60,679 nucleotides of DNA from Solirubrobacteraceae bacterium (GCA_034665245.1 JAXDGC010000237.1:1-60679); one strand, 5' to 3'; counted from the stretch's first letter, positions 246 to 49,251 are shown. Numbers and translations are program-made. The notes: a model not told the origin generated them from the letters alone.

Positions 246-1985
246 ATGAATGTTCCGAGCGTGCGCTTCCGCGTGCCTTTCTTCGTCCTCGCCGCTGCGG
301 TGCTCGTCGTCCTCGCGGCCCCCGGCTCGGCGATGGCCGGCAAGCGCTTCGTGGCTCCGTCGGGCTCGGACTCCGCGACCTGCACCTCGTCTACGCCGTG
401 TCGCTCACTCGATCGTGCGTATCGCCTCGCCGCCCCTGGCCAGACCGTCGAGCTCGCCGGTGGCACGTACGCGGACACCAGCCTCCCCGTCGACGCGACG
501 AAGAGCGCCACGAAGGACGTCGTGTTCGTGCCCGCCGCGGGCGCCGCGCCCAGATTCTCAGGCCCGCTGCACATCGGGGCTCGTCACGTCGAGCTGCGCG
601 GGCTGCAGGTCCAGGGCACGGTGACGATCGACGAGACCGCTCAGAACGTCACTCTGCGCGGGAGCACGATGAAGAACTTCCAGGTGTTCTCAAGCGGTTC
701 ACAGGCGCCACGCAACATCTCGTTCATCGGTGGCAGCGCGGGCCCCTCCGTGGACGACAACAACCGCATCGCATCGAACGGGACATCGACGACGGCGTCG
801 CCGACGAACATCCTGATCGACGGCATGCGGATCCATGACTTCACGCTCAGCCCGGGCTCCCCCGCGCACGTGGAATGCCTGCAGGTCTGGGCGGTGGACG
901 GCTTGACGATCCGCAACAGCACCTTCCGCAACTGCGAGGTGTTCGACGTCTTCCTGCAGAAGCTGCCGGACGGCGCGGCGGTCACTCCGACCAACATCCT
1001 GATCGAGAACAACTTCATGCAGTGCTGCGGCAGCGGCTACTACGCCATCCGGCTCGCCGATCATCCCGGCACGCATTGGACGAACGTGACGATCAGGAAC
1101 AACTCCTTCGACAAGGAGATCAACCCCGACGGAGGAGTTCCGTACACGAACGTCAAGATCGTCGGGAACATCGGTCCGAGGCTCGGCTTCTTCACGGGGG
1201 CAACAGGACGCGAATCGCCGATGCCCGCCGGGATCAGCGTCGACTACAACGTGTGGTACTCGGGCGCAAAGGTCGGGCCTCGGGACAGGGTGGCGCCGAG
1301 CGGCTACACGAACGCGGCCGCGGGCGACCTGCACCTGAAGGCTGGCGCGGCGGCGATCGACAGCGGCCATCCCACCGACCACCCGGGCGGCGACATCGAC
1401 GGCGAGACGCGCCCATTCGGCTCGGCGCCCGATGCCGGCGCGGACGAGTGGACGCCGGGAGGCCCGCCGTCCGCTCCGACCGTTCCGCCGCCGGCCGCCG
1501 ATCCTTTCCTGGGCTCGGGTGTGGGCGTGTTCGGCGCGGCCGCGGATGCTTCGATCCGCCGCGCCCACCCGCGGAGCAACTACGGCCGCTCCAAGCGGCT
1601 GCGAGCAGGCGCGAGGCCGAGGGAGGGCTTCCTTCTGAAGTTCGCGGTCTCCGGGGTCGCCAACCGGAAGGTGAAGCGCGCGACGCTGCGCCTGTACGTG
1701 GCCGACGGCTCCTCGAGCGGCGGAATCTTGCGTCGCGTCTCCAGTCGCTGGAGGGAGTCGCGCGTGACCTGGCGCAGCGCGCCCGCCCTTGTCGGCGCGA
1801 GCCGTGTTGTGCGGAAGCGCAGGGTAAAGCGAGGCCGGTACGTGGAGTTCGACGTCTCCCGGATCGTGACCAAGGACGGCATTTACAGCGTGCGCGTCTC
1901 GTCTCGCGCCCGCGACCGGGTCGCGTACAACGCCCGGGACGCAAAGCGGCACCGGCCGCAGCTCCGGGTCACGCTCGACGGCTGA
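246..1985 (+). CDS. secreted right-handed beta-helix protein (DUF1565/pectate-lyase fold, 'B-type' domain) with C-terminal DNRLRE-like beta-sandwich domain
   Basis: - Signal peptide: MNVPSVRFRVPFFVLAAAVLVVLAAPGSAMA.
- N-terminal motif PSGSDSATCTSSTPCRSLDRAYRLAAPGQTVELAGGTY, typical of DUF1565-type beta-helices.
- Repeated NxxIxxN coils.
- C-terminal [14 protein letters not shown] motif.
- Tail SNYGRSKRLRA...LLKFAVSG...ATLRLYV...WRESRVTWRSAP matches the DNRLRE-domain pattern. Confidence 0.85.
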   Translation: MNVPSVRFRVPFFVLAAAVLVVLAAPGSAMAGKRFVAPSGSDSATCTSSTPCRSLDRAYRLAAPGQTVELAGGTYADTSLPVDATKSATKDVVFVPAAGAAPRFSGPLHIGARHVELRGLQVQGTVTIDETAQNVTLRGSTMKNFQVFSSGSQAPRNISFIGGSAGPSVDDNNRIASNGTSTTASPTNILIDGMRIHDFTLSPGSPAHVECLQVWAVDGLTIRNSTFRNCEVFDVFLQKLPDGAAVTPTNILIENNFMQCCGSGYYAIRLADHPGTHWTNVTIRNNSFDKEINPDGGVPYTNVKIVGNIGPRLGFFTGATGRESPMPAGISVDYNVWYSGAKVGPRDRVAPSGYTNAAAGDLHLKAGAAAIDSGHPTDHPGGDIDGETRPFGSAPDAGADEWTPGGPPSAPTVPPPAADPFLGSGVGVFGAAADASIRRAHPRSNYGRSKRLRAGARPREGFLLKFAVSGVANRKVKRATLRLYVADGSSSGGILRRVSSRWRESRVTWRSAPALVGASRVVRKRRVKRGRYVEFDVSRIVTKDGIYSVRVSSRARDRVAYNARDAKRHRPQLRVTLDG

Positions 1986-1995
1986 CGCCGCCAGG

Positions 1996-2685
1996 TCAGC
2001 CCTCTTCGGCCGTCGCCTCGTGCGGCGCGCCGACCGGCTTGGACTGCGACGAGCCGCGCTGGCGCAGGTAGACGCTGAAGATCGCCATGCTGCCGACGGC
2101 GAGGAACTCCGACTGCCAGTTCTGCAGCGTCGCCTCCCAGAAGTCCGCGGTGCTGATGTAGCCGAGCCAGTTCACGGTGGGCTGCAGGTGCTGGATCTGA
2201 TCCGCGTTGTAGACGCTCCAGCCCGTCACCGACTGGCCGAACCAGGAGCCGAGCCAGATCACGCCCATCACGATCAGGAGCGAGTTGGACAGCAGCCACA
2301 GCCGCAGCCCCTTGGTCTTCGCCCACTTCGGGGAGGCGTCCGTCGCGTACTGCCCGACCTTCTGCTCCTCGTCGGACTCCGTGCCCACCGAGTCGAGCTT
2401 CTTGGACTCGGTCGATCCCTGCTGGACGAGCCACACGCCGGTCAGGATGAAGATCGTGAACTGCAGGTACTCCGACTGCCAGTTCTCCATCACCGCCTGG
2501 CCGAACGACGACGACGTGACGTAGCGCCACAGCGTCAGCGTCTCCGGCGTCTGGTGCAGGAGCTTGGCGTGCGCCACCTCCTCGTCGTTGTAGAGCGCGT
2601 GGCCGGCGATCGCCTGCGCGACGAGCACGACGAGGAACAACCCGAGGAAGAACAGCGACAGCCCGTTGTTGCGCACAGAACGCAC
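1996..2685 (-). CDS. DUF6766-like integral membrane protein
   Basis: 229-aa ORF with a GTG start and a hydrophobic N-terminus (LSLFFLGLFLVVLVAQAIAG). NWQSEYLQF and NWQSEFLAV motifs each precede a TM segment, as I recall for DUF6766. GC3 is high. Confidence 0.7.
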   Translation of the reverse strand: MRSVRNNGLSLFFLGLFLVVLVAQAIAGHALYNDEEVAHAKLLHQTPETLTLWRYVTSSSFGQAVMENWQSEYLQFTIFILTGVWLVQQGSTESKKLDSVGTESDEEQKVGQYATDASPKWAKTKGLRLWLLSNSLLIVMGVIWLGSWFGQSVTGWSVYNADQIQHLQPTVNWLGYISTADFWEATLQNWQSEFLAVGSMAIFSVYLRQRGSSQSKPVGAPHEATAEEG

Positions 2686-3062: not shown

Positions 3063-6464
<3,402 letters not shown>

Positions 6465-6506: not shown

Positions 6507-6619
6507 TCGGTCGGCTGCTCGCGCCTCCTCGCGTCCGGCGCAGATCACTCGATAAAGGAGCCGCGCGAGAGTTCGGCCGCCCGCACCGTATGTCCCGTGA
6601 ACCGCGACGAAGGACGGAC

Positions 6620-7684
6620 ATGCCGGAACGGCGGCCACGCCTCATTTCAATCATCGGTGCTCGCCCGGAGATCATCCAGGCGGCGCCAGTCTCAGCGGCG
6701 CTGGCGCCTCTCGCCGACGAGATCCTTGTGCACACGGGCCAGCACTACGACGACCGCATGTCCGAGGCGCAGATCCTCGACACGGCGCTGCCCCGTCCCC
6801 GCTACAACCTCGGCGTCGGCTCACGCGGGCGCGAGGAGCAGGTGGAGCTCGCCCAGGCGCGACTCGCCGCCGTGATCGCCGAGGAGCGCCCGGACGCCAT
6901 CGTCGTGCGGGGCGACACGAACGCGACGCTCTCGGGCGCCCGCGCCGCGATCGCCGCAGGCCTTCCGCTGATGCACATCGAGGCCGGCCTGCGGTCGTGG
7001 CGCGAGGACATGCCCGAGGAGGGAAACCGCGTCGAGACCGACCGGCTCGCCGACGTCCTCTTCGCGCCGGGCGAGGGAGCACGCCGCAACCTCGAGGCCG
7101 AGGGCGTCCGTGGGACCGTCCACGTCACGGGCGACCCGCTCTGCGACATGCTCGAGTCCTGGCGGGACCGCATCGTCCCGGCGCCGGGCGAGTACCTGCT
7201 CGCGACCGTCCATCGCAACTACAACACCGACGACGCGGCGCGCCTGGCCACGGTGTTGGCCTGCCTCGGCCGCTCCCCGTGGGCGGTCGTGTTCCCCGTA
7301 CACCCGCGCACCCGCGCGAAGATCGCCGAGTGGGGCCTTGAGGTGCCGGCCAACGTCGAGCTGGTCGAGCCGGTTCCCTACACGCACATGCTGGCGCTGG
7401 AGCGGGGCGCGCAGGCGATCGCGACCGACTCCGGCGGGGTCCAGCGCGAGGCCTACCTCTGGGGCGTGCGCTGCGTGACGCTGCGCGAGGAGACGGAGTG
7501 GACCGACACGGTCGACGCCGGCTGGAACCACGTCGTCGGCATCGACCCCGACCGCTTCGCGGACGCCCTGGCGGTGCCGCTGCCGGACGAGCGCCCGCCG
7601 GTCTTCGGAGATGGGACGGCAGCACGGCGTATCGCCGCGCTGGCCGTCGAGGAGCTGTCCAAGGTTGTGGAGGAGGTTCTGTGA
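6620..7684 (+). CDS. wecB: UDP-N-acetylglucosamine 2-epimerase (non-hydrolysing), WecB/WbpI-type
   Basis: Motifs: MPERRPRLISIIGARPEIIQAAPV...HTGQHYD...DSGGVQREA. ATG 6620 is preferred over 6590 because GAAGGA lies 5 nt upstream. Confidence 0.9.
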   Translation: MPERRPRLISIIGARPEIIQAAPVSAALAPLADEILVHTGQHYDDRMSEAQILDTALPRPRYNLGVGSRGREEQVELAQARLAAVIAEERPDAIVVRGDTNATLSGARAAIAAGLPLMHIEAGLRSWREDMPEEGNRVETDRLADVLFAPGEGARRNLEAEGVRGTVHVTGDPLCDMLESWRDRIVPAPGEYLLATVHRNYNTDDAARLATVLACLGRSPWAVVFPVHPRTRAKIAEWGLEVPANVELVEPVPYTHMLALERGAQAIATDSGGVQREAYLWGVRCVTLREETEWTDTVDAGWNHVVGIDPDRFADALAVPLPDERPPVFGDGTAARRIAALAVEELSKVVEEVL

Positions 7685-8727
7685 GCCGCGCTGAGCTGAG
7701 GGTCGGTCTGATCGGGGTCGGGCAAATGGGCGGCTTCCACCTCGAGACGTGGGAGAAGATCCCGGCCGGCCGCGTCGTCGCGGTGGCCGATCCCTCCGAG
7801 ACGATGGCGCGCGGCCGCATCGGCCGCCGCCCCATCGACTGGCACGCCGACTGGCGCGCCCTGCTGGAGCGGTCGGACATCGACGCCGTCTGCATCGCGG
7901 CGCCGTCCGAGATGCACGCGCACATCGGCCTCGCCGCGCTGGACGCGCGCAAACACGTCATGGTTGAGAAGCCGATCGCCACGCGCCTGGAGGACGGGCT
8001 GCGCATGGCCGCGACCGCGCGCCGCGTCGGGCGCAAGCTGATGGTGGGCCACGTCGAGCGCTTCAACCCCGCGGTCGGCAAGCTCCAGTCCCTCATCGAC
8101 GAAGGCCGGATCGGCCGCGTCTTCCGGGCACACGCCACACGCGTCGGACCGCTGCCCGCCCGCATCCGCGATGCCGGCGTCACGATCGACCTCGCCACAC
8201 ACGACCTCGACATCATGCAGTTCGTCCTGGGGCGCGACATCACCCGGGTGTACGCCGAGGGCACCCGCTTCTCGCACCCGACGCAGGAGGACATGATCTC
8301 CTGCCTGCTGCGCTTCGGCGACGACGGCCCGTTCGGGCTGCTCGACGTCAACTGGCTGACGCCCGAGAAGAAGCGCGAGCTGACCGTCATCGGCGAGGGC
8401 GGAATGCTGAGCGCGTCGTACATCACCCAGGACGTCTGGTTCACGGAGTCGACCGAGGCCTCCACCGGCTGGGAGGAGCTCGCGCGGGTCCGGGGCGACG
8501 CCGAGGGCGCCGCAGTGCGCTTCGCCCTGCGCAAGGTCGAGCCGCTGCGCGCAGAGCTCGAGGCCTTCGCCGACTGCATCCTGGACGACACGCCTGAGCC
8601 CGTGACCGCCTACGAGGGCTGCCGCGCGCTGATCGCGGCGCTCGCCGTGCGCGACTCGGCCTTCCACTCGCGCCCGATCACCCTGCTCGGCATGCCGAAC
8701 GCCCCGACCCTGACGCTCGCCGCCTGA
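7681..8727 (+). CDS. Gfo/Idh/MocA-family NAD(P)-dependent sugar oxidoreductase
   Basis: GTG 7681 overlaps the wecB stop (GTGA), with a strong SD GGAGGAGG 4 nt upstream. Motifs include LRVGLIGVGQMGGFH (Rossmann fold) and VMVEKPIA (the EKP motif). Confidence 0.85.
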   Translation: MSRAELRVGLIGVGQMGGFHLETWEKIPAGRVVAVADPSETMARGRIGRRPIDWHADWRALLERSDIDAVCIAAPSEMHAHIGLAALDARKHVMVEKPIATRLEDGLRMAATARRVGRKLMVGHVERFNPAVGKLQSLIDEGRIGRVFRAHATRVGPLPARIRDAGVTIDLATHDLDIMQFVLGRDITRVYAEGTRFSHPTQEDMISCLLRFGDDGPFGLLDVNWLTPEKKRELTVIGEGGMLSASYITQDVWFTESTEASTGWEELARVRGDAEGAAVRFALRKVEPLRAELEAFADCILDDTPEPVTAYEGCRALIAALAVRDSAFHSRPITLLGMPNAPTLTLAA

Positions 8728-41210: not shown

Positions 41211-41879
41211 CTACGCAGCTCCTTTCCTTGTGAGAACAACCCACACCGTCTTGGCGAGGATGAGCAGATCGAGGCCGACGCTGTTTCGCTCGGCGTACTC
41301 GACGTCCAGCCGGACCATCTCCTCGTAGGTCCGTTCGTTGCGGCCGCTGACCTGCCAGAGCCCGGTGAGGCCCGGCTTGACGGCGAAGCGGCGGAGGTAC
41401 GAGGACGGGTAGAGCTCCGCCTCGTACGGGATGACGGGGCGTGGCCCGACGAGCGCCATGTCGCCGCGGATGACGTTCCACAGCTGCGGCAGCTCGTCCA
41501 GGCTCGACTTGCGCAGCAGCCGGCCGATGCTGGTGACGCGGTCGTCGACGGCGAGCTTGTAGAGCCCTCCGCGGGTGGTGCCCTCGTCCTGGCGATCGAT
41601 CAGGGTCTTCACGTAGTCGCGGTGCGGCGCGGAGTCCGCGTCGGCGTGCATGGTGCGGAACTTGAGGACCGTGAAGGGGTCGAGGTCACGACCCAGCCGG
41701 CGCTGGCGGAAGACGATCGGCCCGGGAGAGGAGACCGCGATCGCGAGCGCGACCCCGGCCACCACCGGCGACAGCAGCAGCAGCGCCGTCGCGGCGAGGA
41801 CGATGTCGAGGCCACGGCGCAGGGAGGCCGCGGTGCGGCTCTGCCCCTGCCGGGCGATCAGAAGCTGATGCGCTTCCAC
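41211..41879 (-). CDS. initiating polyprenyl-phosphate sugar-phosphate transferase (bacterial sugar transferase, PglC/WbaP C-terminal type)
   Basis: Single N-terminal TM (LDIVLAATALLLLSPVVAGVALAI), then PIVFRQRRLGRDLDPFTVLKFRTM...LDELPQLWNVIRGDMALVGPRP. Confidence 0.9.
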   Translation of the reverse strand: MEAHQLLIARQGQSRTAASLRRGLDIVLAATALLLLSPVVAGVALAIAVSSPGPIVFRQRRLGRDLDPFTVLKFRTMHADADSAPHRDYVKTLIDRQDEGTTRGGLYKLAVDDRVTSIGRLLRKSSLDELPQLWNVIRGDMALVGPRPVIPYEAELYPSSYLRRFAVKPGLTGLWQVSGRNERTYEEMVRLDVEYAERNSVGLDLLILAKTVWVVLTRKGAA

Positions 41880-41892: not shown

Positions 41893-43110
41893 TCAGGCCG
41901 TCATTGCGGTTGACTCGCTCGACCTACGCGCGGGCGCGGCCGGCGCTTGCGAGGACCGGGCGAAACGCCGCACGACGGCGCTCGGAGGCGCGAACTCGCG
42001 GACGGCCTCGACCACGCGCGCGAGCTGCGCGTCGGTCATGCCCGGCCAGAGCGGCAGCGAGCAGATGCGCTCCGCCAGGCGTTCGCTGACGGGCCGCGAT
42101 CCGGCGCCGAGGCCGACGTGCGCGTAGGCGTCGGTGCGATGGATCGGCACGGGATAGTGGACCGCCGAGGCGATCCCACGCTCGTCGAGGTGCTCGCGCA
42201 GCGCGTCGCGGGCGTCCGTCCGTACGACGAACAGGTGGTAGACGTGGTCCGCGCCGTCGAACGGCGCGTCGATCAGCTCCACGGCGCTGTCCCGCAGGCC
42301 GTCGCGGAGCGCTGCGCCGAGTTCACGGCGACGGCGGTTCCACCCGTCCAGCCGGCCCAGCTTGACCCGCAGGATCGCGGCCTGCAGCGCGTCGAGGCGC
42401 GCGGTGGTCCCCACCACGCGATGCCGGTAGCGCGGGCGCTCGCCGTGCGAGCGCAGGAGGCGCACCTGATCGGCGAGGTCCTCGTCACGGGTGACGACGG
42501 CCCCGCCGTCGCCCCACGCGCCGAGGTTCTTGGTGGGATAGAACGAGAAGCAGCCGGCATCGCCGAACGTGCCGACGGGACGGCCCTTGTAGGTCGCCAT
42601 GTGCGCCTGGCACGCGTCCTCGATCACGGGGACGCCGGCCGCGCACGCGACCTCCAGGAGCGGGTCGAGGTCGACAGTGGATCCGTAGAGGTGGACGGGG
42701 ATCACGCAGCCGGTCTCGGGGCGGATGTGCTCGGCCACGATCTCGGCCGTCAGCAGGTGCGTGCGCTCGTCGACGTCGACGAGGCAGGGTGTCGCCCCGA
42801 CGAGGCTGACGGCCTCGGCGGTCGCGATGAAGGAGTTGGCCGGCACGATGACCTCGTGGCCGGGCCCGACGCCCAGCGCCCGTAGAGCGAGGACGATCGC
42901 CTCCGTCCCGGAGGAGACGCCGATGGCGTGCGGGGCGTCGAACGCGGTGGCGAGCTCCGCCTCGAAGCGCTCGAGCGCCTCACCCATCGTAAAGGCCCCG
43001 GTGGCCGCGATCCCGGCGACGACGTCGAGCAGCTCGGCGACCAGCGCCGGGTCCTCGTTGTCGAGCCGCAGGAGCGGGATCCGCTCGGTTGTCGAGTCGA
43101 TCACGCTCAT
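41893..43110 (-). CDS. DegT/DnrJ/EryC1/StrS-family PLP-dependent sugar aminotransferase
   Basis: ATG 43110 (MSVIDSTTERIPLLRLD...) overlaps the sigma gene stop (ATGA). Motifs: GVSSGTEAIVLALRALG and FSFYPTKNLGAWGDGGAV (PLP-binding Lys). Confidence 0.9.
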   Translation of the reverse strand: MSVIDSTTERIPLLRLDNEDPALVAELLDVVAGIAATGAFTMGEALERFEAELATAFDAPHAIGVSSGTEAIVLALRALGVGPGHEVIVPANSFIATAEAVSLVGATPCLVDVDERTHLLTAEIVAEHIRPETGCVIPVHLYGSTVDLDPLLEVACAAGVPVIEDACQAHMATYKGRPVGTFGDAGCFSFYPTKNLGAWGDGGAVVTRDEDLADQVRLLRSHGERPRYRHRVVGTTARLDALQAAILRVKLGRLDGWNRRRRELGAALRDGLRDSAVELIDAPFDGADHVYHLFVVRTDARDALREHLDERGIASAVHYPVPIHRTDAYAHVGLGAGSRPVSERLAERICSLPLWPGMTDAQLARVVEAVREFAPPSAVVRRFARSSQAPAAPARRSSESTAMTA

Positions 43111-43772
43111 GCTGCGAGGCGGGGGCGCGACGTCTGGGGGGCCGACTCCATCTCCGCGAGCTGCTCCTGCAGCGCGCGGCGGCCCCGATGGTGCAGCCCA
43201 TGGACGGAGCTCTCGCTCCGGCCCATGCTCTCGGCGATCTCCGGCGGGGTGAGGCCGACGACGTGACGGAGCACGACGACGGTCCGCTGCTCCTCGGGCA
43301 GCGTGCCCAGCGCGTCGCGCAGGCACTGCGAGCGCTCGGTGGATGCCTCGTCACCGCGCTCGTCGCTGCCGAAGACCTCCTCGGTCGGGACGGCGCGTCG
43401 CTTGCGCAGGTGATCGATCGCGACGTTGTGAGCGAGGCGCAGGACCCAGACGCGGAACGGGGCGACGGTCGGGTCGTACTTGCCGATCACCGTCATGACC
43501 TTCGTGAAGACGTGCTGCGTCACGTCCTCGGCCTCATGGTCGTCGCGCACGATGCTGCGCACGTAGCCATAGACGTTGTCGGAGTAGCGGAGGTAGAGGT
43601 AGCGGACCGCCTCGCGGTCGCCCTCCTTGGCGCGGGCGGCGGCGCGGGCGACCATGCGGTCGACCTCCTCCGACTGATCCACGCGGGCCGCCCGACGGAA
43701 TGACGCCTTCGGCTCGCGGCTCAGCTCGTCTGCGGCCAGCTTGAGCCGCCGGCTCCCTGTCTCGTTTTGCAT
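43107..43772 (-). CDS. ECF-type sigma-70 family RNA polymerase sigma factor
   Basis: Region 2: YLYLRYSDNVYGYVRSIVRDDHEAEDVTQHVFTKV...FRVWVLRLAHNVAIDHLRKRR. Region 4: LPEEQRTVVVLRHVVGLTPPEIAESMGRSESSVHGLHHRGRRAL. GGAAAGG lies 8 nt upstream of the ATG. Confidence 0.85.
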   Translation of the reverse strand: MQNETGSRRLKLAADELSREPKASFRRAARVDQSEEVDRMVARAAARAKEGDREAVRYLYLRYSDNVYGYVRSIVRDDHEAEDVTQHVFTKVMTVIGKYDPTVAPFRVWVLRLAHNVAIDHLRKRRAVPTEEVFGSDERGDEASTERSQCLRDALGTLPEEQRTVVVLRHVVGLTPPEIAESMGRSESSVHGLHHRGRRALQEQLAEMESAPQTSRPRLAA

Positions 43773-44677: not shown

Positions 44678-45085
44678 TCAGGCCGCGACCGCGGCGGACT
44701 CTTCGTGGACGTCGAGCTCGCGCTCGCCGACAACCTCTGCAAGGACGAGACCGAGCGTCTCGGGACCGGCCGTGGCCGGGACGACCGCGCTCGCGCCGGC
44801 CCGGAGGGCGTCGGCCAGCCAGCCGGCTTCGGGCCGCTCGGCACGGACGACGATCCGCGCGTGCGGGAGCGTCGCGCGGATCTCCGCGATCCGCTGCAGG
44901 GCCAGCCGTGGCCAGCCCATCTCGTCCACGAGGACCAGGTCAGGGGCGAAGCGCGCCAGCGCGGGCGCGATCGCAGCGTGACCGTGACAGTGGCGCACGA
45001 TGTTGACGCGGGCCAGCGTGGACACGCTGCGCGTCATGGCCTCCATCGCGGCTCCGCTGTCGGCTACGAGCGCGACGCTGATCAC
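44678..45085 (-). CDS. stand-alone receiver-like (probable pseudo-receiver) protein
   Basis: MISVALVADSG...DLVLVDEMGWP...RIVVRAE...GASAVVPAT. The Asp at the phospho-acceptor position is present, but the conserved T/S and Lys positions appear substituted. GTG 45085 overlaps the upstream stop (GTGA). Confidence 0.6.
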   Translation of the reverse strand: MISVALVADSGAAMEAMTRSVSTLARVNIVRHCHGHAAIAPALARFAPDLVLVDEMGWPRLALQRIAEIRATLPHARIVVRAERPEAGWLADALRAGASAVVPATAGPETLGLVLAEVVGERELDVHEESAAVAA

Positions 45086-45650: not shown

Positions 45651-46373
45651 GTGGGCATCGAACGAGTGAAACGCGAAGGAACGGAAACCGAAACGCTGCG
45701 AGCGGTCATTGCAGATGACGACCCGTTCGCCCGCCGCGTGATCAAGGACGTGCTGCAGAAAGCGGGTGTGCTCGTGATCGCCGAGGCCCGCAACGGCCGT
45801 CAGGCGGTCGAATTGACGCTGTTCTACCGCCCCGACGTGGTGGTGATGGACGTGGTCATGCCCGAGCTGGACGGCATCATCGCGACGCGTCAGATTCGCA
45901 AGGAGATCCCCGAGCAGCTCGTGATCGTGCTGACGGGCGCGGGCGAGGAGGACCAGGAGCTGGGTCTTCAGGCGCTCCGCGCCGGCGCCAGCGGGTTCCT
46001 CTCCAAGGACCTCGAGATCGATGCACTGCCGCGCGCGCTCGAGGGCGTGAAGGCCGGGGAGGCGGCGATCTCCCGCAAGATGACGCGGGCATTGATCGAC
46101 CGGCTGCGCGACACGCCCAGTGGGTCAGCGGGCATGCGGCCGGTCAAGAGCCCCCTCACGGCGCGTGAGTGGGAGGTCATCGACCTGCTGAAGGCGACCA
46201 AGTCGACCGACCAGATCGCCGATGAGCTCGTGCTCTCCACGGAGACCGTCCGCTCGCACGTGAAGAACATCCTTCGCAAGCTCGACGTGCGCTCGCGCGA
46301 GGACGCCGTCGTCGTCGCGGACCGCATGCGCGGCTCGCTCGGGGGCGAAGAGCCCCCGGACACCGCCGCCTAG
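45651..46373 (+). CDS. NarL/FixJ-family response regulator (REC plus LuxR HTH)
   Basis: Canonical REC residues (VIADDDPFARR...DVVVMDVVMPELDG...VIVLTGAG...GASGFLSKD) and HTH (LTAREWEVIDLLKATKSTDQIADELVLSTETVRSHVKNILRKLDV). Confidence 0.9.
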   Translation: MGIERVKREGTETETLRAVIADDDPFARRVIKDVLQKAGVLVIAEARNGRQAVELTLFYRPDVVVMDVVMPELDGIIATRQIRKEIPEQLVIVLTGAGEEDQELGLQALRAGASGFLSKDLEIDALPRALEGVKAGEAAISRKMTRALIDRLRDTPSGSAGMRPVKSPLTAREWEVIDLLKATKSTDQIADELVLSTETVRSHVKNILRKLDVRSREDAVVVADRMRGSLGGEEPPDTAA

Positions 46374-46617: not shown

Positions 46618-46686
46618 TCTGTCTTGGACCGGCGCGCTTGACGTTCCTACGCGCCGCTCGCTCACTTCCGCCTCTGGGAGGTCAGG

Positions 46687-49251
46687 TTGCAACTCCGTGT
46701 GCCCGTACGCGCCGATCAAGCGTGCGCCTCAACGCTCCGCCGCTCCGTCCTCGTCCGCCGCCTGATGCTCGGCGCGCTCGCGCTCCTGGCCCTGCTGCTC
46801 ACGCCTCTCGGCGTCGGGCAAGCCGCGGCGAAGACGCTGTATGTATCGCCCTCGGGCGTCAACGGCGCCAACACTTGTCAGAGTTCGATCAACCCGTGCG
46901 CCTCCTTCGACACCGCGTATCACGCGGCCGCCGCCGGCGACGTCGTCGAGGCCGCCGGTGGCACGTACCCCGGCCAGACCCTCAGCCGCGACGCCACCAA
47001 GACGGGCGGCGCGAACGTCGTCATCCGGCCCGCGCTCGCCGCGACCGTCACGGTCAACGGCAGCGTCACTGTCAACGCCTCCTACGTGACCTTGCAGGCC
47101 ATCACGCTGGTCGACGTCACCGTGCGCACGCTGGACGTGGCGAGTCCGCCCACGGTCACGGGAGTCACCCTCCGCGACATCAGCGGGCGAAACTTCAACA
47201 TCTTCTCGGCGACGAACGTGAACGTCATCGGGGGCGAGTTCGGCCCGGCGAGCGCCTGTGGCGGTCCGTACGGCGGCTCCAACAACTCGATCCGCAAGCT
47301 GAGCGCGGTCAACCCGGCCAACATCGTCATCGACGGCGTGCGCATCCATGAGGTCCAGTCCTACGACCTGGGCCCGTGCCATATCGAGGGCCTCGCCATC
47401 TTCGCCGGCTCGAACGTCATCGTGCGCAACTCGAAGTTCTTCGGCAACTCGGTCTACGACGTCTTCCTCCAGGGCAACAGCGGGCCGATCTCCGGCGTCA
47501 CCTTCGAGAACAACTGGTTCGCCGCTCCCGTGGGCGTCACAGGACAGGTGAACGGGACCACCGTCGCCTTCTCGGGCGTGAACTCGAACGTCACGCTGCG
47601 CAACAACTCGTTCAACGCGCTGATGTCGCTCGACGACAACGGACAGAACCCGACGTTCACGAACTTCGTCGTCACCGGCAACGTCGGCGTGCTGCCGTAC
47701 AACGGCTGCAGCCTGCGCGGCGTCGCGTACTCCAACAACGTCTGGAAGGGCCACGCCTGCGCTACCACGGACCGCAACCTCAACGGCGCCGCGCTGCCCT
47801 ACACCAACGCCGCCAACTCGAGCGCGCTCAACTACCACCTGACGGGCGGCGTCGCCGTCGACCGGATCCCGCTCGGCAGCGGCCCCGCCAGCGACATCGA
47901 CGGCCAGGCACGTCCGATGGGCGTCGGCAGCGACGCCGGCTCGGACGAGATGGGGGGCGCGACGCCGACCCCGACCCCGACTCCGACGGCGACCCCGTCG
48001 CCGACAGCGACGCCGTCGCCGACAGCGACGCCGTCGCCCACGCCGACTCCCACGCCGTCGCCGTCGCCGTCGCCGGTGCCGACGGTGACGCCGGTGCCGA
48101 CGGTGACGCCGTCTCCGACGCCGGTGCCGACGGGCAAGTTGTTTATGTCGCCGAGTGGTGTGGATACGGCGGCGTGCACGCAGGCGGCGCCGTGTAAGAC
48201 GTTGGCGCGGACCTATCGTCTGGCGACGGCGGGGATGACGGTCGAGCTGGCGGCGGGTTCCTATGCGGACTCGAGCCTGCCGTTGGACGCGTCGAAGACG
48301 TCGTTGAGCGATGTGTTGTTCGCGCCGGCTGCCGGGGCGAGCGTGACGTTCTCCGGGACGCTGCACATCTATGCCCGCCATGCCGAGTTGCGGGGGATGC
48401 GTTTCACCAACTCGGTGTGGGTCGATTCGACCGCCCAGGATGTGACGTTGCGTGGCGACACGCTGAAGAACTTCCAGATCCTCTCAAGTGGTGCCGAGGC
48501 GCCGCGTGACATCTCGTTCATCGGCGGCAGCATGGGCCCGTCGGCGGATGAGAACAACCGCATCGCGTCCAACGGGACGAGCACGACGGCGTCGCCGACG
48601 AACATCCTGATCGACGGCGTGAACATCCATGACTACACGCTCAGTCCGGGTTCGAGCGCGCATGTGGAGTGTCTGCAGGTGTGGGCCGCCGACGGGTTGA
48701 CGATCCGCAACAGCACGTTCCGCAATTGCGACGTGTTCGACATCTTCCTGCAGAAGCTGCCGGGTGGTGCGGCCGCGACGCCGACCAACATCCTGATCGA
48801 GAACAACTTCATGAACTGCTGCGCGACCGGGTTCTTCTCGATCCGTTTGGCTGATCATGCGGGCACGAGTTGGCGCAACGTCACGATCCGCAACAACTCG
48901 ATGGACAAGGCGCCCAATCTCGATGCCGGGGTGCCGTACTCCAATGTCAAGGTGCTCAACAACATCGCTCCGGGGCTCAGCCTCTACACGGGCGCGACGG
49001 GCGGGGAGGGATCGCTGCCGGCGGGCGTGACCGTCGATTACAACGTCTGGTACGCCGGTGCGAAGGTCGGCACCCATGACCAGGTCGCGGCGCACGGCTA
49101 CCGCAACCTCGCCACCGGCGACTTCCACCTCAACACCGGCGCCGCCGCCATCAACCGCGGCGACCCCGCCAACAGCCCGGCCAAGGACATCGACGGGCAA
49201 GCACGACCCCAAGGCATCGCCCCCGACGCCGGCGCCGACGAAGCCGGCTGA
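46687..49251 (+). CDS. secreted protein: A-type beta-helix, PT/PS linker, B-type beta-helix (no DNRLRE tail)
   Basis: TTG 46687 has GGGAGG 6 nt upstream (ATG alternative at 46765). Signal peptide ...[24 protein letters not shown] domain about 46831-47950 and B domain about 48133-49248, both collinear with gene 3063-6464. Confidence 0.85.
47959..48132 (+). repeat. Pro-Thr/Pro-Ser/Pro-Val linker-coding repeat
   Basis: Encodes [58 protein letters not shown]. Confidence 0.9.

What the first reader, a model, noticed from the sequence alone, without database searches (positions are those of the whole stretch)
246..49251. Glycan-assembly island that carries an unusually large secreted glycan-binding/processing protein set
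**Seen, biosynthesis side:**
- A Wzx/Wzy-type assembly set: PGT 41211-41879, Wzx-like 24667-26205, Wzy-like 36575-37972, PCP 37969-38820.
- A MurJ-like flippase plus GT-C pair.
- 3 GT2, 2 GT4 and an acyltransferase-3.
- Nucleotide-sugar enzymes and two AsnB-type amidotransferases.

**Seen, exported side:** these genes are interleaved with seven signal-peptide or lipobox proteins, starting at 246, 3063, 12035, 20981, 28129 (minus), 34700 (minus) and 46687. Together they hold 7 right-handed beta-helix domains, 5 LamG, 6 PKD and 2 DNRLRE-like domains.

**Established:** EPS/O-antigen loci usually encode zero or one enzyme of this fold (lyase, glycanase or C5-epimerase).

**Inference:** the island may specify both a polymer and a dedicated multi-protein extracellular apparatus for it, such as matrix scaffold, trimming or epimerisation. 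I am not aware of a described system with this composition, but I cannot search.
Basis: partly seen in the sequence, partly recalled or inferred. Interest (0 to 1): 0.7.

Follow-up and report, generated by a model that had tools for sequence, protein, structure and literature searches.

The report
Glycan locus with built-in secreted enzymes
A soil actinobacterium of the order Solirubrobacterales keeps the genes for building an acidic cell-surface sugar polymer together with seven secreted proteins that look like enzymes and binders for that polymer, and relatives keep the same pairing, which makes it a candidate dedicated polymer-finishing toolkit that nobody has yet tested.

Summary
The 49-kb block holds a Wzx/Wzy-type glycan assembly set and sugar-nucleotide genes pointing to N-acetylated uronic acids and uronamides. 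It also holds seven exported proteins that take up 36% of the block.

Six beta-helix domains are paralogues of one uncharacterised family, in two subtypes (A and B). The model built for the B subtype resembles uronate-cleaving polysaccharide lyases most closely (PL9, PL31, PL6, Vibrio RbmB). Two of these proteins carry very basic CBM96 modules.

- The largest exoprotein starts with a dimethylformamidase/N-acyl-amino-acid acylase-type amidohydrolase domain whose iron ligands are conserved.
- The lipoprotein-like beta-helix P4 is fused to the neighbouring GT-C-like membrane protein in at least eight relatives.
- The block is a conserved chromosomal locus beginning right after glmS, not demonstrably a mobile island.

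In 28 species-level Solirubrobacterales/Thermoleophilia genomes, and in two distant family members, the beta-helix genes sit inside glycan loci, usually in 2-6 copies. They also do not look like adhesins.

All enzyme activities remain predictions. I rate it a new variant of a known kind (polymer locus plus processing enzymes, as in vps/rbm or the AlgE epimerases), of moderate-to-good interest.

The parts
246..1985 (+). P1: signal peptide, B-type beta-helix (aa 31-402), very basic CBM96/DNRLRE module (aa 430-576)
   Evidence: CBM96 79 bits; DNRLRE 76 bits; choice-of-anchor Q. Model and fold search. CBM96 module pI 12, net charge +30.
1996..2685 (-). DUF6766 membrane protein lying between P1 and P2. 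Its role is unknown and it is absent from all related loci examined.
   Evidence: 289 bits; no homologue in 29 loci.
3063..6464 (+). P2: signal peptide, A-type beta-helix, PT linker, B-type beta-helix, PT linker, CBM96
   Evidence: The B domain is 80% identical to that of P1 and the CBM96 79% identical.
6590..7684 (+). Non-hydrolysing UDP-GlcNAc 2-epimerase (WecB/WbpI type)
   Evidence: TIGR00236, 215 bits, above cut-off. 60-65% identical in the 17 core-arrangement loci.
7681..8727 (+). GFO/IDH/MocA oxidoreductase resembling UDP-GlcNAc(A) 3-dehydrogenase (WbpB-like)
   Evidence: NF040723, 264 bits, below cut-off; start refined.
8747..9571 (+). GT2a, the most conserved gene of the locus. Its nearest named families are polyprenyl-phosphate-sugar synthases.
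   Evidence: PpgS, ArnC, Dol-P-hexose transferase; all far below cut-off. 75-81% identical in 17 of the 18 related loci that carry it (55% in L007).
9568..10932 (+). FAD-dependent oxidoreductase (amine-oxidase fold, PRK07233 family)
   Evidence: 389 bits, above cut-off.
10939..12009 (+). Sugar-1-phosphate nucleotidyltransferase with a C-terminal left-handed beta-helix (RmlA-long-like)
12035..17539 (+). P3: signal peptide, DMFase/acylase-type amidohydrolase domain, then three (PKD-PKD-LamG) units
   Evidence: Profile against PDB sequences. Model and fold search. Fe ligands and catalytic His invariant: compared with PMC7686228.
17584..19134 (+). MurJ-like MOP-superfamily flippase
   Evidence: weak hits only. 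63-68% identical homologues lie next to the GT-C-like gene in L021, L023-L025 and L032.
19131..20984 (+). GT-C-like polytopic membrane protein (ArnT/PMT-like by the naming of homologues)
20981..22375 (+). P4: lipoprotein-like NosD-type beta-helix. Its start overlaps the GT-C-like stop by 4 nt, and the two are fused in relatives.
22372..23430 (-). Acyltransferase-3 membrane O-acyltransferase
23427..24584 (-). GT4a glycosyltransferase
24667..26205 (+). Wzx-type MOP flippase
26211..28127 (+). AsnB-type amidotransferase 1 (nearest family: XrtA/PEP-CTERM EPS amidotransferase)
   Evidence: 653 bits, below the 817 cut-off; start refined.
28129..29613 (-). P5: signal peptide, 96-aa polybasic segment, A-type beta-helix
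29619..30557 (-). GT2c glycosyltransferase
30560..32491 (-). AsnB-type amidotransferase 2
32563..33459 (+). GT2b glycosyltransferase
33423..34703 (+). NDP-sugar 6-dehydrogenase, closest to UDP-ManNAc/UDP-GlcNAc dehydrogenases; makes a uronic acid
   Evidence: TIGR03026, 407 bits, above cut-off.
34700..36463 (-). P6: signal peptide, LamG_3, Big_7, PT linker, LamG_3. No catalytic domain was recognised.
   Evidence: Only weak homologues (27-28% identity) in related loci.
36575..37972 (-). Wzy_C-domain membrane protein (polymerase; a ligase or O-oligosaccharyltransferase is not excluded)
   Evidence: Wzy and PCP homologues are adjacent in L017 and L031.
37969..38820 (-). PCP-like chain-length protein, identified by topology only
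38839..40101 (-). GT4b glycosyltransferase
40098..41207 (-). Second GFO/IDH/MocA oxidoreductase
41211..41879 (-). Small monotopic phosphoglycosyl transferase (initiating enzyme)
41893..43110 (-). DegT-family sugar aminotransferase
43107..43772 (-). ECF sigma factor, conserved beside the locus in L007, L017 and L019
43800..44588 (-). LuxR/NarL-type response-regulator-like protein
44678..45085 (-). Stand-alone receiver-like protein
   Evidence: read from the sequence only.
45651..46373 (+). LuxR-type response regulator
   Evidence: Homologues lie beside the beta-helix genes in L021 and L023-L025.
46687..49251 (+). P7: signal peptide, A-type beta-helix, PT linker, B-type beta-helix
49317..51002 (-). 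PAS histidine kinase at the right edge. Whether it belongs to the locus is uncertain.

Best explanation
This is a conserved chromosomal locus of a Solirubrobacterales (Thermoleophilia, Actinomycetota) bacterium. It makes an acidic, heavily N-acylated heteropolysaccharide of the cell envelope or matrix, and it encodes the secreted proteins that bind and process that polymer outside the cell.

**Assembly (steps shown by family assignment)**
- A small phosphoglycosyl transferase starts a lipid-linked repeat unit.
- Three GT2 and two GT4 enzymes extend the repeat unit.
- Wzx flips it across the membrane, a Wzy_C protein polymerises it, and a PCP-like protein sets chain length.

**Sugar chemistry (inferred from the enzyme set)**
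WecB, a UDP-HexNAc 6-dehydrogenase, two WbpB-like 3-dehydrogenases and a DegT aminotransferase point to 2,3-diamino or diacetamido uronic acids of the ManNAc(3NAc)A type. Two AsnB-type amidotransferases would turn some carboxylates into amides. An acyltransferase-3 would add O-acyl groups.

**Second module (inferred)**
A likely polyprenyl-phosphate-sugar synthase (GT2a), a MurJ-like flippase and a GT-C-like membrane enzyme would add a sugar, or transfer the chain, on the outer face of the membrane. The GT-C-like protein works together with the beta-helix lipoprotein P4. The P4 gene overlaps it here and is fused to it in relatives.

**Outside the cell (inferred)**
- Six paralogous beta-helix domains (P1, P2, P5, P7) cut the polymer, or less likely epimerise it. 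Lyase-type beta-elimination at the uronic acids is the most likely chemistry.
- These proteins are held on the polyanion by polybasic CBM96 modules (P1, P2) or a basic N-terminal segment (P5).
- P3 removes N-acyl or amide groups through its iron amidohydrolase domain, positioned by its PKD and LamG modules.
- P6 is a lectin-like binder.
- An ECF sigma factor and LuxR-type regulators control the set.
For: **Organism and locus**
- All homologues of P1 that carry an organism name, and 24 of the 28 genome loci, come from Solirubrobacterales MAGs; the other four loci are two Thermoleophilaceae, one Gaiellaceae and one labelled only Actinomycetota.
- The window starts with the 3' end of glmS, as in a relative at 82% identity where the order is rplM-rpsI-glmM-glmS-P1.
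- GC content is uniform across the window.

**Pathway**
WecB, the NDP-sugar dehydrogenase and the PRK07233 oxidoreductase score above their curated cut-offs.

**Linkage between exoproteins and biosynthesis genes**
- 17 of 28 genomes share the arrangement GFO2-PGT | WecB-GFO1-GT2a-oxidase ... B+A beta-helix | P3 | A beta-helix; 13 of the 17 also show the start of the GT-C-like gene, or a short match to it, at the locus edge.
- There are 2-6 A/B domains per 21-kb locus.
- A relative at 87% identity keeps the order P3, MurJ-like, GT-C-like, P4, Acyl3, GT4, Wzx, AsnB, followed by a 546-aa minus-strand gene where P5 lies in the window.
- L031 and L032 keep P3 and a P4 homologue (fused to the GT-C-like protein in L032) in glycan loci; L032 has clearly different sugar genes.
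- Two distant family members (38-43% identity) lie between Wzx, GT2, AsnB and PGT genes.

**GT-C-like and P4**
At least eight homologue clusters of about 1000 aa are GT-C::beta-helix fusions. Their C-terminal parts are 44-46% identical to P4. In the window the two genes overlap by 4 nt.

**Beta-helix fold**
- The B-type model has pLDDT 83.5 and pTM 0.86.
- The top Foldseek hits are the PL9 rhamnogalacturonan lyase (E 1.5e-6), a PL31 alginate lyase, PL6 alginate lyases, Pel9A and RbmB. The first adhesin is at rank 41.
- An H/R/E/R row and the H-x-E motif are conserved in five of the six window copies; the last R is Q in P2-A.

**Binding of an anionic polymer**
The founding CBM96 binds alginate (PMC9971899). 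The two CBM96 modules here have pI about 12 and net charges of +26 and +30. The basic segment of P5 has net charge +24.

**P3 amidohydrolase domain**
- Pfam DMFA2_C scores 268 bits.
- A profile of the domain hits N-acetyl-beta-Phe acylase at 1.6e-17 and DMFase at 1e-7.
- Foldseek gives 1.2e-17 for DMFase, and the next unrelated hit is at 1e-5.
- The DMFase residues Y399, Y440, E521 and H519 (PMC7686228) align with invariant residues Y204, Y213, E294 and H292 of P3. The Y440 equivalence goes through the acylase alignment, because HMMER leaves that DMFase stretch unaligned.

**No sign of a foraging role**
The block contains no sugar-uptake or uronate-catabolism genes.
Against: - No biochemical or genetic data exist for any member, and I found no literature.
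- The structural matches of the beta-helix are at fold level only (TM 0.35-0.5).
- Profile-to-sequence matches to PL6 and PL9 cover only the N-terminal cap. No known lyase Lys/Arg-Ca2+ site, and no epimerase DPHD motif, could be aligned. Lyase, hydrolase, epimerase and non-catalytic roles therefore all remain open.
- I had no model coordinates, so I could not check that the conserved residues line a cleft.
- The sugar structure is inferred from enzyme families, most of which score below equivalog cut-offs.
- The GT-C, MurJ and PCP assignments are weak.
- No LCP ligase or export component that would define the polymer's destination lies in the window.
- P6 has only weak homologues, and the DUF6766 protein none, in relatives' loci. 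P4 recurs beside the GT-C-like gene but lies outside the 10-kb flank in the anchored loci.
- A distant DMFA2_C homologue (40% identity) is not in a glycan locus.
Confidence: 0.6

Rival explanations
1. The exoproteins are glycoprotein cargo rather than enzymes for the polymer. On this reading the locus is a protein O-glycosylation or surface-layer system. The Wzy_C protein or the GT-C-like protein acts as an oligosaccharyltransferase that decorates the Thr/Pro-rich linkers of P2, P6 and P7, and the beta-helix proteins form the glycosylated surface coat.
For: - P2, P6 and P7 have long (T/S)P-rich linkers, which are classic O-glycosylation sites in Actinomycetota (general knowledge).
- The Wzy_C domain is shared by O-oligosaccharyltransferases and ligases.
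- Homologues of the GT-C-like protein are named protein mannosyltransferase-like.
- In L021 and L023-L025 the beta-helix genes sit beside only the MurJ-like/GT-C-like pair.
- Wzx also gives a weak match to an O-glycosylation flippase.
Against: - A PCP-like gene next to Wzy_C suggests polymerisation of long chains.
- P1, P3, P4 and P5 lack long PT linkers, and such linkers are common in secreted actinobacterial multidomain enzymes anyway.
- CBM96 modules, a lyase-like fold and an intact amidohydrolase site are features of enzymes, not of a passive coat.
- This reading does not exclude the best explanation: the enzymes could themselves be glycosylated.
Confidence: 0.12
2. The exoproteins are foraging enzymes for foreign polysaccharides (plant pectin, algal or microbial polyuronates). 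They lie beside the biosynthetic genes for regulatory or historical reasons only.
For: - The best structural matches are catabolic lyases for pectin, alginate and chondroitin.
- The founding CBM96 comes from a catabolic alginate lyase (PMC9971899).
- These are soil organisms, and the family has 1351 clusters at E<=1e-30 in metagenomes.
Against: - The window has no uptake or uronate-catabolism genes.
- The linkage to Wzx, Wzy, PGT and GT genes is conserved across at least 25 species-level genomes and in both distant members that I sampled.
- The P4 fusion with a membrane glycosyltransferase-like protein is hard to reconcile with foraging.
Confidence: 0.1
3. The beta-helix and LamG/PKD proteins are non-catalytic matrix scaffolds or adhesins. 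They cross-link the polymer or attach cells to surfaces, in the manner of RbmC/Bap1 or PfbA.
For: - No catalytic constellation of a known CAZy family could be aligned.
- P6 has only lectin-like and Ig-like domains.
- Beta-helix adhesins do appear among the weaker structural hits (PfbA, rank 41).
- The polybasic modules would glue polyanions together.
Against: - A row of invariant polar residues (H, D/E, H-x-E, R, E) is conserved between the A and B types at 35% identity and across the family. This pattern is more typical of an active site.
- P3 keeps the complete DMFase metal and His site.
- The top 12 structural hits are all polysaccharide-degrading enzymes: 11 lyase chains and one polygalacturonase.
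Confidence: 0.12

Closest known systems
Vibrio cholerae vps-I / rbm / vps-II region, with the lyase RbmB and the matrix proteins RbmA, RbmC and Bap1
   Same: - One chromosomal region encodes a Wzx/Wzy-type polysaccharide that contains an amidated uronic acid, together with secreted proteins that bind it and a right-handed beta-helix lyase that cuts it (PMC11637428, PMC12993940).
- RbmB is among the structural matches of the B-type domain (E 2e-3).
   Different: - The rbm region has a single lyase. This locus has six paralogous beta-helix domains of another family, plus a seventh beta-helix coupled to a GT-C-like protein.
- The rbm region has no amidohydrolase like P3.
- The binding modules differ (CBM96, LamG and PKD here, against FnIII, beta-propeller and beta-prism there).
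- The organism here is a monoderm actinobacterium.
- There is no detectable sequence similarity to RbmB.
Azotobacter vinelandii secreted mannuronan C-5 epimerases AlgE1-7
   Same: - A family of several secreted, modular paralogues acts on a polyuronate outside the cell. Each has one or two beta-helix catalytic modules plus accessory binding modules (general knowledge).
- The AlgE4 A-module is a structural match (E 2.6e-3).
   Different: - The algE genes are not embedded in the biosynthetic cluster.
- AlgE proteins use a type I secretion signal and R-modules, not Sec signal peptides and CBM96.
- The DPHD-type catalytic motif is not present in the A/B domains (read).
Polysaccharide lyase families PL9 (Pel9A, BT4170), PL6 and PL31
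   Same: - Right-handed parallel beta-helix with a similar N-terminal cap.
- These families give the best Foldseek hits.
- Homologues carry precomputed Pel9A-like_beta_helix hits.
- The substrates are uronic-acid polymers, which is what this locus is predicted to make.
   Different: - TM-scores are only 0.35-0.5 and sequence identity 12-16%.
- The profile match is restricted to the cap.
- The catalytic Lys/Arg and Ca2+ ligands could not be aligned.
- My own Pfam scan of P1, P2, P5 and P7 gave only the generic Beta_helix and DUF1565 families.
Dimethylformamidase large subunit and N-acetyl-(R)-beta-phenylalanine acylase (Pfam DMFA2_C)
   Same: - Same fold (Foldseek E 1e-17 and 1e-16).
- Same family by Pfam (268 bits).
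- The 2-Tyr-1-Glu iron site and the catalytic His are conserved (PMC7686228).
   Different: - Those enzymes are cytoplasmic and act on small amides.
- P3 is secreted, about 1800 aa long, carries six PKD and three LamG modules, and is encoded in glycan loci.
- No small subunit gene is evident.
- The substrate is unknown. Processing of a polysaccharide or cell-wall amide would be a new role for the family.
Exopolysaccharide de-N-acetylase/hydrolase partners (PgaB, PelA, IcaB, Agd3 with Sph3 and Ega3)
   Same: The logic is the same: the biosynthetic locus encodes extracytoplasmic enzymes that deacylate and trim the nascent polymer (general knowledge).
   Different: Those deacetylases belong to CE4 or CE18 and the hydrolases to GH13-like, GH153, GH135 or GH114 families. 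Here the candidates are a DMFase-type amidohydrolase and a new beta-helix family.
Three-component extracytoplasmic glycosylation systems (GtrA/GtrB/Gtr*, ArnC/ArnT, PpgS/Rv3779)
   Same: Each combines a GT2 polyprenyl-phosphate-sugar synthase, a flippase and a GT-C transferase. GT2a's nearest named families are PpgS, ArnC and Dol-P-hexose transferases, and homologues of the GT-C-like protein are named ArnT-like or PMT.
   Different: - All the matches are far below cut-off.
- The flippase here is MurJ-like, not GtrA-like.
- I know of no described member of these systems in which the GT-C partner is coupled or fused to a beta-helix domain.

Membership tests
Wzx/Wzy-dependent glycan assembly pathway | Initiating polyprenyl-phosphate phosphoglycosyl transferase | tested here: met
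   41211-41879: Bac_transf 208 bits against a cut-off of 27. TIGR03025 scores 263 bits, just below its cut-off because the protein is the short one-domain type.
Wzx/Wzy-dependent glycan assembly pathway | Wzx (MOP) flippase | tested here: met
   24667-26205: Polysacc_synt_3 167 bits against a cut-off of 23.
Wzx/Wzy-dependent glycan assembly pathway | Wzy polymerase | tested here: inconclusive
   36575-37972: Wzy_C 43 bits against a cut-off of 31.7, with about 10-12 transmembrane segments. The domain is shared with ligases and O-oligosaccharyltransferases, so polymerase activity is not shown.
Wzx/Wzy-dependent glycan assembly pathway | Polysaccharide co-polymerase (Wzz/CpsC type) | tested here: inconclusive
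   37969-38820: Wzz E = 0.2 only. Two transmembrane segments flank a loop of about 180 aa, and the gene lies next to Wzy here and in L017 and L031.
UDP-2,3-diacetamido-2,3-dideoxy-uronic acid (WbpA/B/E/D/I-type) pathway | 6-dehydrogenase, 3-dehydrogenase, aminotransferase, N-acetyltransferase and 2-epimerase all present | tested here: inconclusive
   The dehydrogenase, two GFO-type enzymes, DegT and WecB are present. No clear WbpD-type N-acetyltransferase was found; the only left-handed beta-helix is the tail of the nucleotidyltransferase at 10939-12009. Most hits are below equivalog cut-offs.
CBM96 (Pfam PF24517, NCBIfam DNRLRE) | Sequence match above the curated cut-off | tested here: met
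   P1 scores 79 bits and P2 73 bits against a cut-off of 26. DNRLRE scores 76 and 61 bits against a cut-off of 34.
CBM96 (Pfam PF24517, NCBIfam DNRLRE) | Binding of a polyuronate | not testable with these tools
   Only indirect support: pI about 12 and net charges of +26 and +30. The founding member binds alginate (PMC9971899).
Polysaccharide lyase family 9 (Pel9A-like) | Family-level sequence or structure match across the catalytic core | tested here: not met
   Foldseek against 5olq gives E 1.5e-6 with TM 0.39, and against 1ru4 E 7e-4 with TM 0.40. The profile aligns only residues 1-43 to 5olq. My Pfam scan did not return PF22842, although it is precomputed for homologues.
Polysaccharide lyase family 9 (Pel9A-like) | Ca2+-binding Asp cluster and catalytic Lys | not tested
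   No residue-level alignment of the core and no model coordinates were available.
Polysaccharide lyase family 6 | Family-level sequence match including the catalytic Lys/Arg and Ca2+ site | tested here: not met
   The profile hit to 6qps (E 1.7e-6) rests on the N-terminal cap, residues 29-95. The core stretch scores only 6 bits.
Mannuronan C-5 epimerases (AlgG/AlgE) | Beta-helix carrying the DPHD-type catalytic motif | tested here: not met
   AlgE4 is a weak structural hit (rank 29, E 2.6e-3). No DPHD or DPHE motif occurs in the six domains.
Autotransporter or adhesin beta-helix passengers | C-terminal translocator barrel or wall anchor, and best matches to adhesins | tested here: not met
   There is no translocator or LPXTG domain. 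The proteins end in the choice-of-anchor-Q motif or in CBM96. The first adhesin in the fold search is at rank 41.
DMFase / N-acyl-beta-Phe acylase amidohydrolases (Pfam DMFA2_C) | Sequence match above cut-off and the same fold | tested here: met
   268 bits against a cut-off of 27. Profile against PDB sequences gives 1.6e-17 and 1e-7. Foldseek gives 1.2e-17 to 6lvb.
DMFase / N-acyl-beta-Phe acylase amidohydrolases (Pfam DMFA2_C) | 2-Tyr-1-carboxylate Fe site plus catalytic His (Y399, Y440, E521, H519) | tested here: met
   These align to invariant Y174, Y183, E264 and H262 of alignment A3, which are P3 residues Y204, Y213, E294 and H292 (PMC7686228). The Y440 equivalence goes through the acylase alignment.
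DMFase / N-acyl-beta-Phe acylase amidohydrolases (Pfam DMFA2_C) | Amide hydrolysis and iron binding | not testable with these tools
   Needs biochemistry.
GT-C glycosyltransferases (ArnT/PMT, COG1807) | Family profile match | tested here: inconclusive
   The window protein has no Pfam or NCBIfam hit. A few homologues carry PMT_2, and JGI names several ArnT-like or PMT.
GT-C glycosyltransferases (ArnT/PMT, COG1807) | Polytopic membrane domain with acidic residues in the first outer loop, plus a soluble C-terminal domain | tested here: met
   14 partly overlapping hydrophobic windows up to residue 462, then a soluble tail. The first loop reads ...SPEIDAGAELSTADLVSHGAIPYEDVRYFYGPL.
MurJ/MOP flippases | Family profile match above cut-off | tested here: inconclusive
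   Pfam MurJ scores 23.8 bits against 27.4. TIGR01695 scores 43 bits against 235 but covers residues 47-499. The homologue in L032 carries MurJ.

The most novel reading that the evidence does not exclude
Thermoleophilia may have an undescribed machinery for maturing a cell-surface polysaccharide outside the membrane, built from three new parts:
- A new polysaccharide-cleaving beta-helix family, kept in 2-6 copies per locus and tethered to the polyanion by polybasic CBM96 modules.
- The first DMFase-type iron amidohydrolase that works on a glycan, removing N-acyl groups or uronamide groups after export. That would be a new class of polysaccharide deacylase or deamidase unrelated to CE4.
- A GT-C-type membrane transferase physically coupled (and fused in relatives) to a beta-helix finishing domain, so that synthesis and modification are joined at the membrane.
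Probability: 0.3. Interest if true: 0.75.

Novelty: new variant of a known kind. Interest (0 to 1): 0.58.

Why it matters
Solirubrobacterales are among the most abundant soil Actinomycetota, yet they are barely cultured and nothing is known about their envelope polymers.

If the reading is right, the locus offers four things:
- A new family of polymer-specific depolymerases (1351 clusters at E<=1e-30 in metagenomes).
- A new biological role for the dimethylformamidase/acylase fold, whose natural function is unclear because DMF is man-made.
- A case of gene fusion linking a GT-C membrane enzyme to a beta-helix domain.
- A clean comparative system: one conserved set of extracellular proteins riding on glycan loci of differing sugar chemistry. 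It could show how bacteria finish, remodel or release their own surface polysaccharides.

It may also supply enzymes for tailoring amidated or N-acylated polyuronates.

Tried and rejected
- **Exact look-ups failed.** P4 and P6 were not found in the assembly index, so the window's own contig could not be retrieved there. The organism was inferred from homologues instead.
- The 13-sequence A/B alignment was too diverse for the scan. It was redone with six B-type sequences, so the genome survey is anchored on the B type only.
- **Single-sequence PDB searches gave little.** P1 gave nothing. P2 gave only low-complexity matches of its PT linkers to circumsporozoite protein. The P3 N-domain gave nothing. 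Profiles were needed.
- **Phage tailspike or depolymerase origin.** PHROGs gave nothing relevant for the A/B domains and only a weak tail-spike hit for P4.
- **Non-coding RNA elements.** No Rfam hit in the window.
- **Mobile island.** GC content is uniform and the block begins after glmS in this window and in two close relatives. A transposase was seen only in one relative's locus (L009).
- **Spurious ORFs.** 43534-44844 and 44573-45346 were rejected as high-GC artefacts. Frame-specific GC3 shows three smaller minus-strand genes there.
- **Long N-terminal extensions rejected.** This applies to P5, AsnB1, GFO1, DegT and Acyl3.
- **Literature searches.** Searches on Solirubrobacterales with beta-helix, on DUF1565, and on Solirubrobacter exopolysaccharide clusters found nothing relevant.

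Full report
**1. What is in the window**

The DNA is about 71% G+C throughout, so long spurious ORFs abound. I called genes by frame-specific GC3 and checked them against Pfam and NCBIfam.

- An initiating phosphoglycosyl transferase (41211-41879).
- A Wzx flippase (24667-26205).
- A Wzy_C protein (36575-37972) next to a PCP-like protein. The PCP has no significant family hit but has the right two-transmembrane topology (37969-38820).
- Three GT2, two GT4 and an acyltransferase-3.
- WecB, an NDP-sugar 6-dehydrogenase closest to UDP-ManNAc/UDP-GlcNAc dehydrogenases, two GFO/IDH/MocA enzymes closest to UDP-GlcNAc 3-dehydrogenase, a DegT aminotransferase, and an RmlA-long-like nucleotidyltransferase.
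- An FAD oxidoreductase of the PRK07233 family.
- Two AsnB-type amidotransferases, closest to the amidotransferase of XrtA/PEP-CTERM EPS systems.

The MurJ-like flippase (17584-19134) and the 'GT-C' (19131-20984) are weaker calls. The GT-C-like protein has no profile hit of its own. It is a polytopic membrane protein with a soluble tail, and some of its homologues are named ArnT-like or PMT, or carry PMT_2.

The enzyme set fits a WbpA/B/E/I-like route to 2,3-diamino or diacetamido uronic acids, with some carboxylates converted to amides. That is an inference from family membership. No clear WbpD-type acetyltransferase was found.

**2. The seven exported proteins**

All seven have signal-like N-termini. 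Together the proteins use 36% of the 49 kb.

Six of the beta-helix domains belong to one family with two subtypes:
- A type: P2 N-terminal domain, P5, P7 N-terminal domain. These are 58-70% identical to each other.
- B type: P1, P2 middle domain, P7 C-terminal domain. These are 69-80% identical to each other.
- A and B types are 35-37% identical.

Each domain starts with a Cys-containing DUF1565-type cap (SPSGSDS..C....PC) and ends with the choice-of-anchor-Q motif (DIDG..RP.G..DAGADE). P1 is essentially a copy of the B-CBM96 part of P2.

The seventh beta-helix, P4, is a different, NosD-like type with a lipobox-like signal.

**3. What the A/B beta-helices resemble**

A model of the P1 B domain, built on 13 homologues, is confident (pLDDT 83.5, pTM 0.86).
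- Its best PDB matches are polysaccharide lyases that act on uronic-acid polymers: the PL9 rhamnogalacturonan lyase (E 1.5e-6), a PL31 alginate lyase, PL6 alginate lyases and chondroitinase B, and Pel9A. Further down come the V. cholerae VPS lyase RbmB and the AlgE4 epimerase.
- The first adhesin, PfbA, is at rank 41.
- TM-scores are only 0.35-0.5.
- A sequence profile aligns only the N-terminal cap to PL6 and PL9 entries.

This is therefore a resemblance of fold and likely function, not membership of a known PL family.

The repeating strand motif places H, R, E and R on successive turns (IHD / IRN / IEN / IRN). These residues, and an H-x-E motif, are conserved between the A and B types and across the family. 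That suggests a functional groove, but I could not inspect coordinates.

The family is large and uncharacterised: 1351 clusters at E<=1e-30 and 5769 at E<=1e-10 among 1.84 billion representatives. I found no literature on it.

**4. Binding modules point to a polyanion**

CBM96 was defined on an alginate-specific module (PMC9971899). The two CBM96 modules here are extremely basic (pI about 12, net charges +30 and +26 over about 155 residues). P5 has a 96-residue N-terminal segment with net charge +24. The beta-helix domains themselves are acidic. This fits enzymes tethered to an acidic polymer, which is what the biosynthetic genes predict.

**5.

P3 residues 98-550 match Pfam DMFA2_C at 268 bits.
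- A profile of 18 homologues hits N-acetyl-(R)-beta-phenylalanine acylase (E 1.6e-17) and the dimethylformamidase large subunit (E 1e-7) among PDB sequences.
- A model of the domain (pLDDT 80, pTM 0.87) matches those two enzymes at E 1e-17 and 1e-16. Nothing else scores better than 1e-5.
- DMFase binds Fe(III) through Y399, Y440 and E521 and needs H519 (PMC7686228). In the alignments these correspond to P3 residues Y204, Y213, E294 and H292, all invariant in the 18-sequence alignment. The Y440 equivalence goes through the acylase alignment, because HMMER leaves that DMFase stretch unaligned.

Both characterised relatives hydrolyse small amides (a formamide and an N-acetyl group). P3 is a secreted 1834-residue protein with the architecture amidohydrolase-(PKD-PKD-LamG)x3. 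The most economical reading is an extracellular enzyme that removes N-acyl or amide groups from a glycan decorated with exactly such groups. Its role would be analogous to PgaB, PelA or Agd3, but the enzyme family is unrelated. That step is inferred.

**6. Relatives keep the exoproteins inside glycan loci**

All homologues come from uncultured Solirubrobacterales/Thermoleophilia.

In two relatives at 82% identity the P1 gene follows rplM-rpsI-glmM-glmS; on the contig that continues, the next genes are fragments of a P2-like gene. The window itself begins with the 3' end of glmS. To the right of the block lie nnr, a CBS gene and alr. This is a fixed chromosomal locus, not an evident mobile island.

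A scan of one genome per GTDB species with B-type motifs gave 28 loci. I compared all window proteins with these loci by tblastn:
- 17 loci share GFO2-PGT | WecB-GFO1-GT2a-FAD oxidase ... (B+A beta-helix protein) | P3 homologue (57-61% identical to P3) | A-type beta-helix; in 13 of them the start of the GT-C-like gene, or a short match to it, is visible at the locus edge.
- 4 loci have several A/B genes next to the MurJ-like/GT-C-like pair.
- 2 Thermoleophilaceae loci have them next to DegT-GFO2-GT4b, and on the longer contig also PCP-Wzy-GT2b-AsnB.
- The Baekduia and Gaiellaceae loci have them among AsnB and GT2 genes plus either Wzy, Wzx and WecB or DegT and PGT.
- The rest are short contigs.

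A/B domains occur in 2-6 copies per 21-kb locus, typically three.

Further loci agree:
- A relative at 87% identity keeps the window's order P3, MurJ-like, GT-C-like, P4, Acyl3, GT4, Wzx, AsnB, then a 546-aa minus-strand gene where P5 lies in the window.
- Two loci, one of them (L032) with clearly different sugar genes, still contain P3 and a P4 homologue, fused to the GT-C-like protein in L032 (L031, L032).
- Two distant A/B family members chosen only for contig length (38-43% identity) also sit between Wzx, GT2, AsnB, CE4 and PGT genes.
- By contrast, a 40%-identical DMFA2_C homologue is not in a glycan locus. The association therefore holds for the P3 subfamily, not for the whole Pfam family.

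**7. P4 and the GT-C-like protein are one functional unit**

Among the homologues of the GT-C-like protein, at least eight clusters are proteins of about 1000 residues that carry Beta_helix/NosD domains. The C-terminal 375 residues of two of them are 44-46% identical to P4. In the window the P4 start codon overlaps the GT-C-like stop codon (TTGA). Such a gene fusion is strong evidence that the two proteins act together on the outer face of the membrane.

GT2a is the most conserved gene of the locus (75-81% identity in 17 of the 18 related loci that carry it, 55% in L007). Its nearest named families are polyprenyl-phosphate-sugar synthases (PpgS, ArnC, Dol-P-hexose transferase), all far below cut-off. 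Together with the MurJ-like flippase this suggests a GtrB/flippase/GT-C-type outer-face glycosylation module. That is an inference.

**8. Best explanation and rivals**

I favour a Wzx/Wzy-built acidic, N-acylated and partly amidated heteropolysaccharide of the envelope or matrix. The teichuronic-acid enzymes TuaB, TuaD and TuaH are among the nearest named relatives. On this reading the polymer is finished outside the cell by locus-encoded proteins:
- A/B beta-helix depolymerases or modifiers, with a lyase most likely given the uronic acids, the structural neighbours and CBM96.
- The P3 amidohydrolase.
- The GT-C-coupled P4.
- The lectin-like P6.
- Control by an ECF sigma factor and LuxR-type regulators.

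Confidence is about 0.6.

The rivals are as follows. Each is disfavoured but not excluded, and they are partly compatible with the main reading.
- **Glycoprotein cargo of an O-glycosylation system.** For: PT-rich linkers, the ambiguity of Wzy_C, and PMT-like naming of homologues.
- **Foraging enzymes for foreign polyuronates.** Against: the conserved linkage, the absence of catabolic and uptake genes, and the fusion.
- **Non-catalytic scaffolds.** Against: the conserved polar rows and the intact P3 site.

**9. Comparison with known systems and novelty**

The idea of a polymer locus with its own extracellular proteins is known. Examples:
- V. cholerae vps/rbm with the beta-helix lyase RbmB (PMC11637428, PMC12993940).
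- The seven secreted AlgE beta-helix epimerases of Azotobacter.
- PgaB, PelA and Agd3-type deacetylases.

What is new here is the composition:
- A lineage-wide, multi-copy, uncharacterised beta-helix family.
- A DMFase-type amidohydrolase recruited to glycan loci.
- A GT-C/beta-helix fusion.

I therefore rate it a new variant of a known kind. No activity is demonstrated, which caps the score, but the comparative evidence is unusually consistent and the predictions are directly testable.

Noticed in passing
window 19131-22375; homologues P0250, P0253, P0259, P0261, P0272, P0274, P0284, P0287; L032 5551-8568: The GT-C-like membrane protein and the P4 beta-helix are separate, 4-nt-overlapping genes in the window. 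In at least eight homologue clusters they are a single protein of about 1000 aa.
   Followed up: yes
window 12125-13780 (P3 aa 31-582): The N-terminal domain of the largest exoprotein is a DMFase/N-acyl-beta-Phe acylase-type amidohydrolase, not a beta-helix. The 2-Tyr-1-Glu iron site and the catalytic His are invariant.
   Followed up: yes
window 1521-1985 (P1 CBM96), 5994-6464 (P2 CBM96), 29260-29547(-) (P5 aa 301-396): The CBM96 modules and the N-terminal segment of P5 are extremely basic (pI about 12, net charges +24 to +30). All the beta-helix, LamG and PKD parts are acidic, except P4 (pI 10).
   Followed up: partly
window 43107-46373 and 49317-51002: A regulator cluster: an ECF sigma factor, a LuxR-type response-regulator-like gene (43800-44588, minus strand), a stand-alone receiver-like gene (44678-45085, minus), an unknown 153-aa gene (45082-45543, minus), a LuxR response regulator (45651-46373) and a PAS histidine kinase. 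The long ORFs 43534-44844 and 44573-45346 are high-GC artefacts.
   Followed up: partly
window 7681-7684, 19131-19134, 20981-20984, 22372-22375, 23427-23430, 34700-34703, 37969-37972, 40098-40101, 43107-43110: Many adjacent genes overlap by 4 nt. On one strand the pairs are WecB/GFO1, MurJ-like/GT-C-like, GT-C-like/P4, GT4a/Acyl3, PCP/Wzy, GFO2/GT4b and ECF sigma/DegT, which suggests translational coupling within sub-operons. P4/Acyl3 and UDP-DH/P6 are convergent pairs whose stop codons overlap.
   Followed up: no
window 44-121; L001 1-9918: The window starts with the 3' end of glmS. In close relatives the locus follows guaB-guaA ... rplM-rpsI-glmM-glmS. To the right of the block lie nnr (51041-52558), a CBS-pair gene and alr (53033-54133). 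The glycan locus thus begins directly after glmS, and housekeeping genes (nnr, a CBS-pair gene, alr) follow it in the window.
   Followed up: partly
window 1996-2685 (minus strand): A DUF6766 membrane protein (289 bits) is wedged between P1 and P2 on the opposite strand. It has no homologue in any of the 29 related loci examined.
   Followed up: partly
window 8747-9571: GT2a is the most conserved gene of the locus (75-81% identity in 17 of the 18 related loci that carry it, 55% in L007). Its nearest named families are polyprenyl-phosphate-sugar synthases (PpgS, ArnC, Dol-P-hexose transferase). It is always followed by the PRK07233-type FAD oxidoreductase.
   Followed up: partly
L009 5461-9434: In one relative, an MFS transporter, a PD40-repeat protein and a DDE_3 transposase lie between the FAD oxidoreductase and the beta-helix gene. 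This shows the locus tolerates insertions at that junction.
   Followed up: no
L032 (GCA_046462295.1, JBKGUS010000049.1): A variant locus keeps P3, MurJ-like, the GT-C::beta-helix fusion, GT4 and Wzx. Its other genes are an AMP-binding enzyme, an acyl carrier protein, a hexapeptide acyltransferase, FemAB, a CE4 deacetylase, a formyltransferase and dTDP-sugar genes. This implies N-formyl, N-acyl or aminoacyl sugars.
   Followed up: no
window 4300-4450, 5580-5900, 35360-35470, 47940-48120: Long Thr/Pro (and Ser/Pro) linker repeats in P2, P6 and P7. In the PDB sequence search they produced spurious matches to Plasmodium circumsporozoite protein. They are potential O-glycosylation sites.
   Followed up: no
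L030 7834-12247: A distant DMFA2_C homologue (40% identity) is not in a glycan locus. It lies next to an Nramp metal transporter and an iron-dependent repressor, which is of interest given the family's iron site.
   Followed up: no
window 54133-60679: Outside the finding: an M28 peptidase (55487-57001, minus strand), several small unassigned ORFs, and a further GT4 glycosyltransferase that runs off the end of the window (59398 onward).
   Followed up: no
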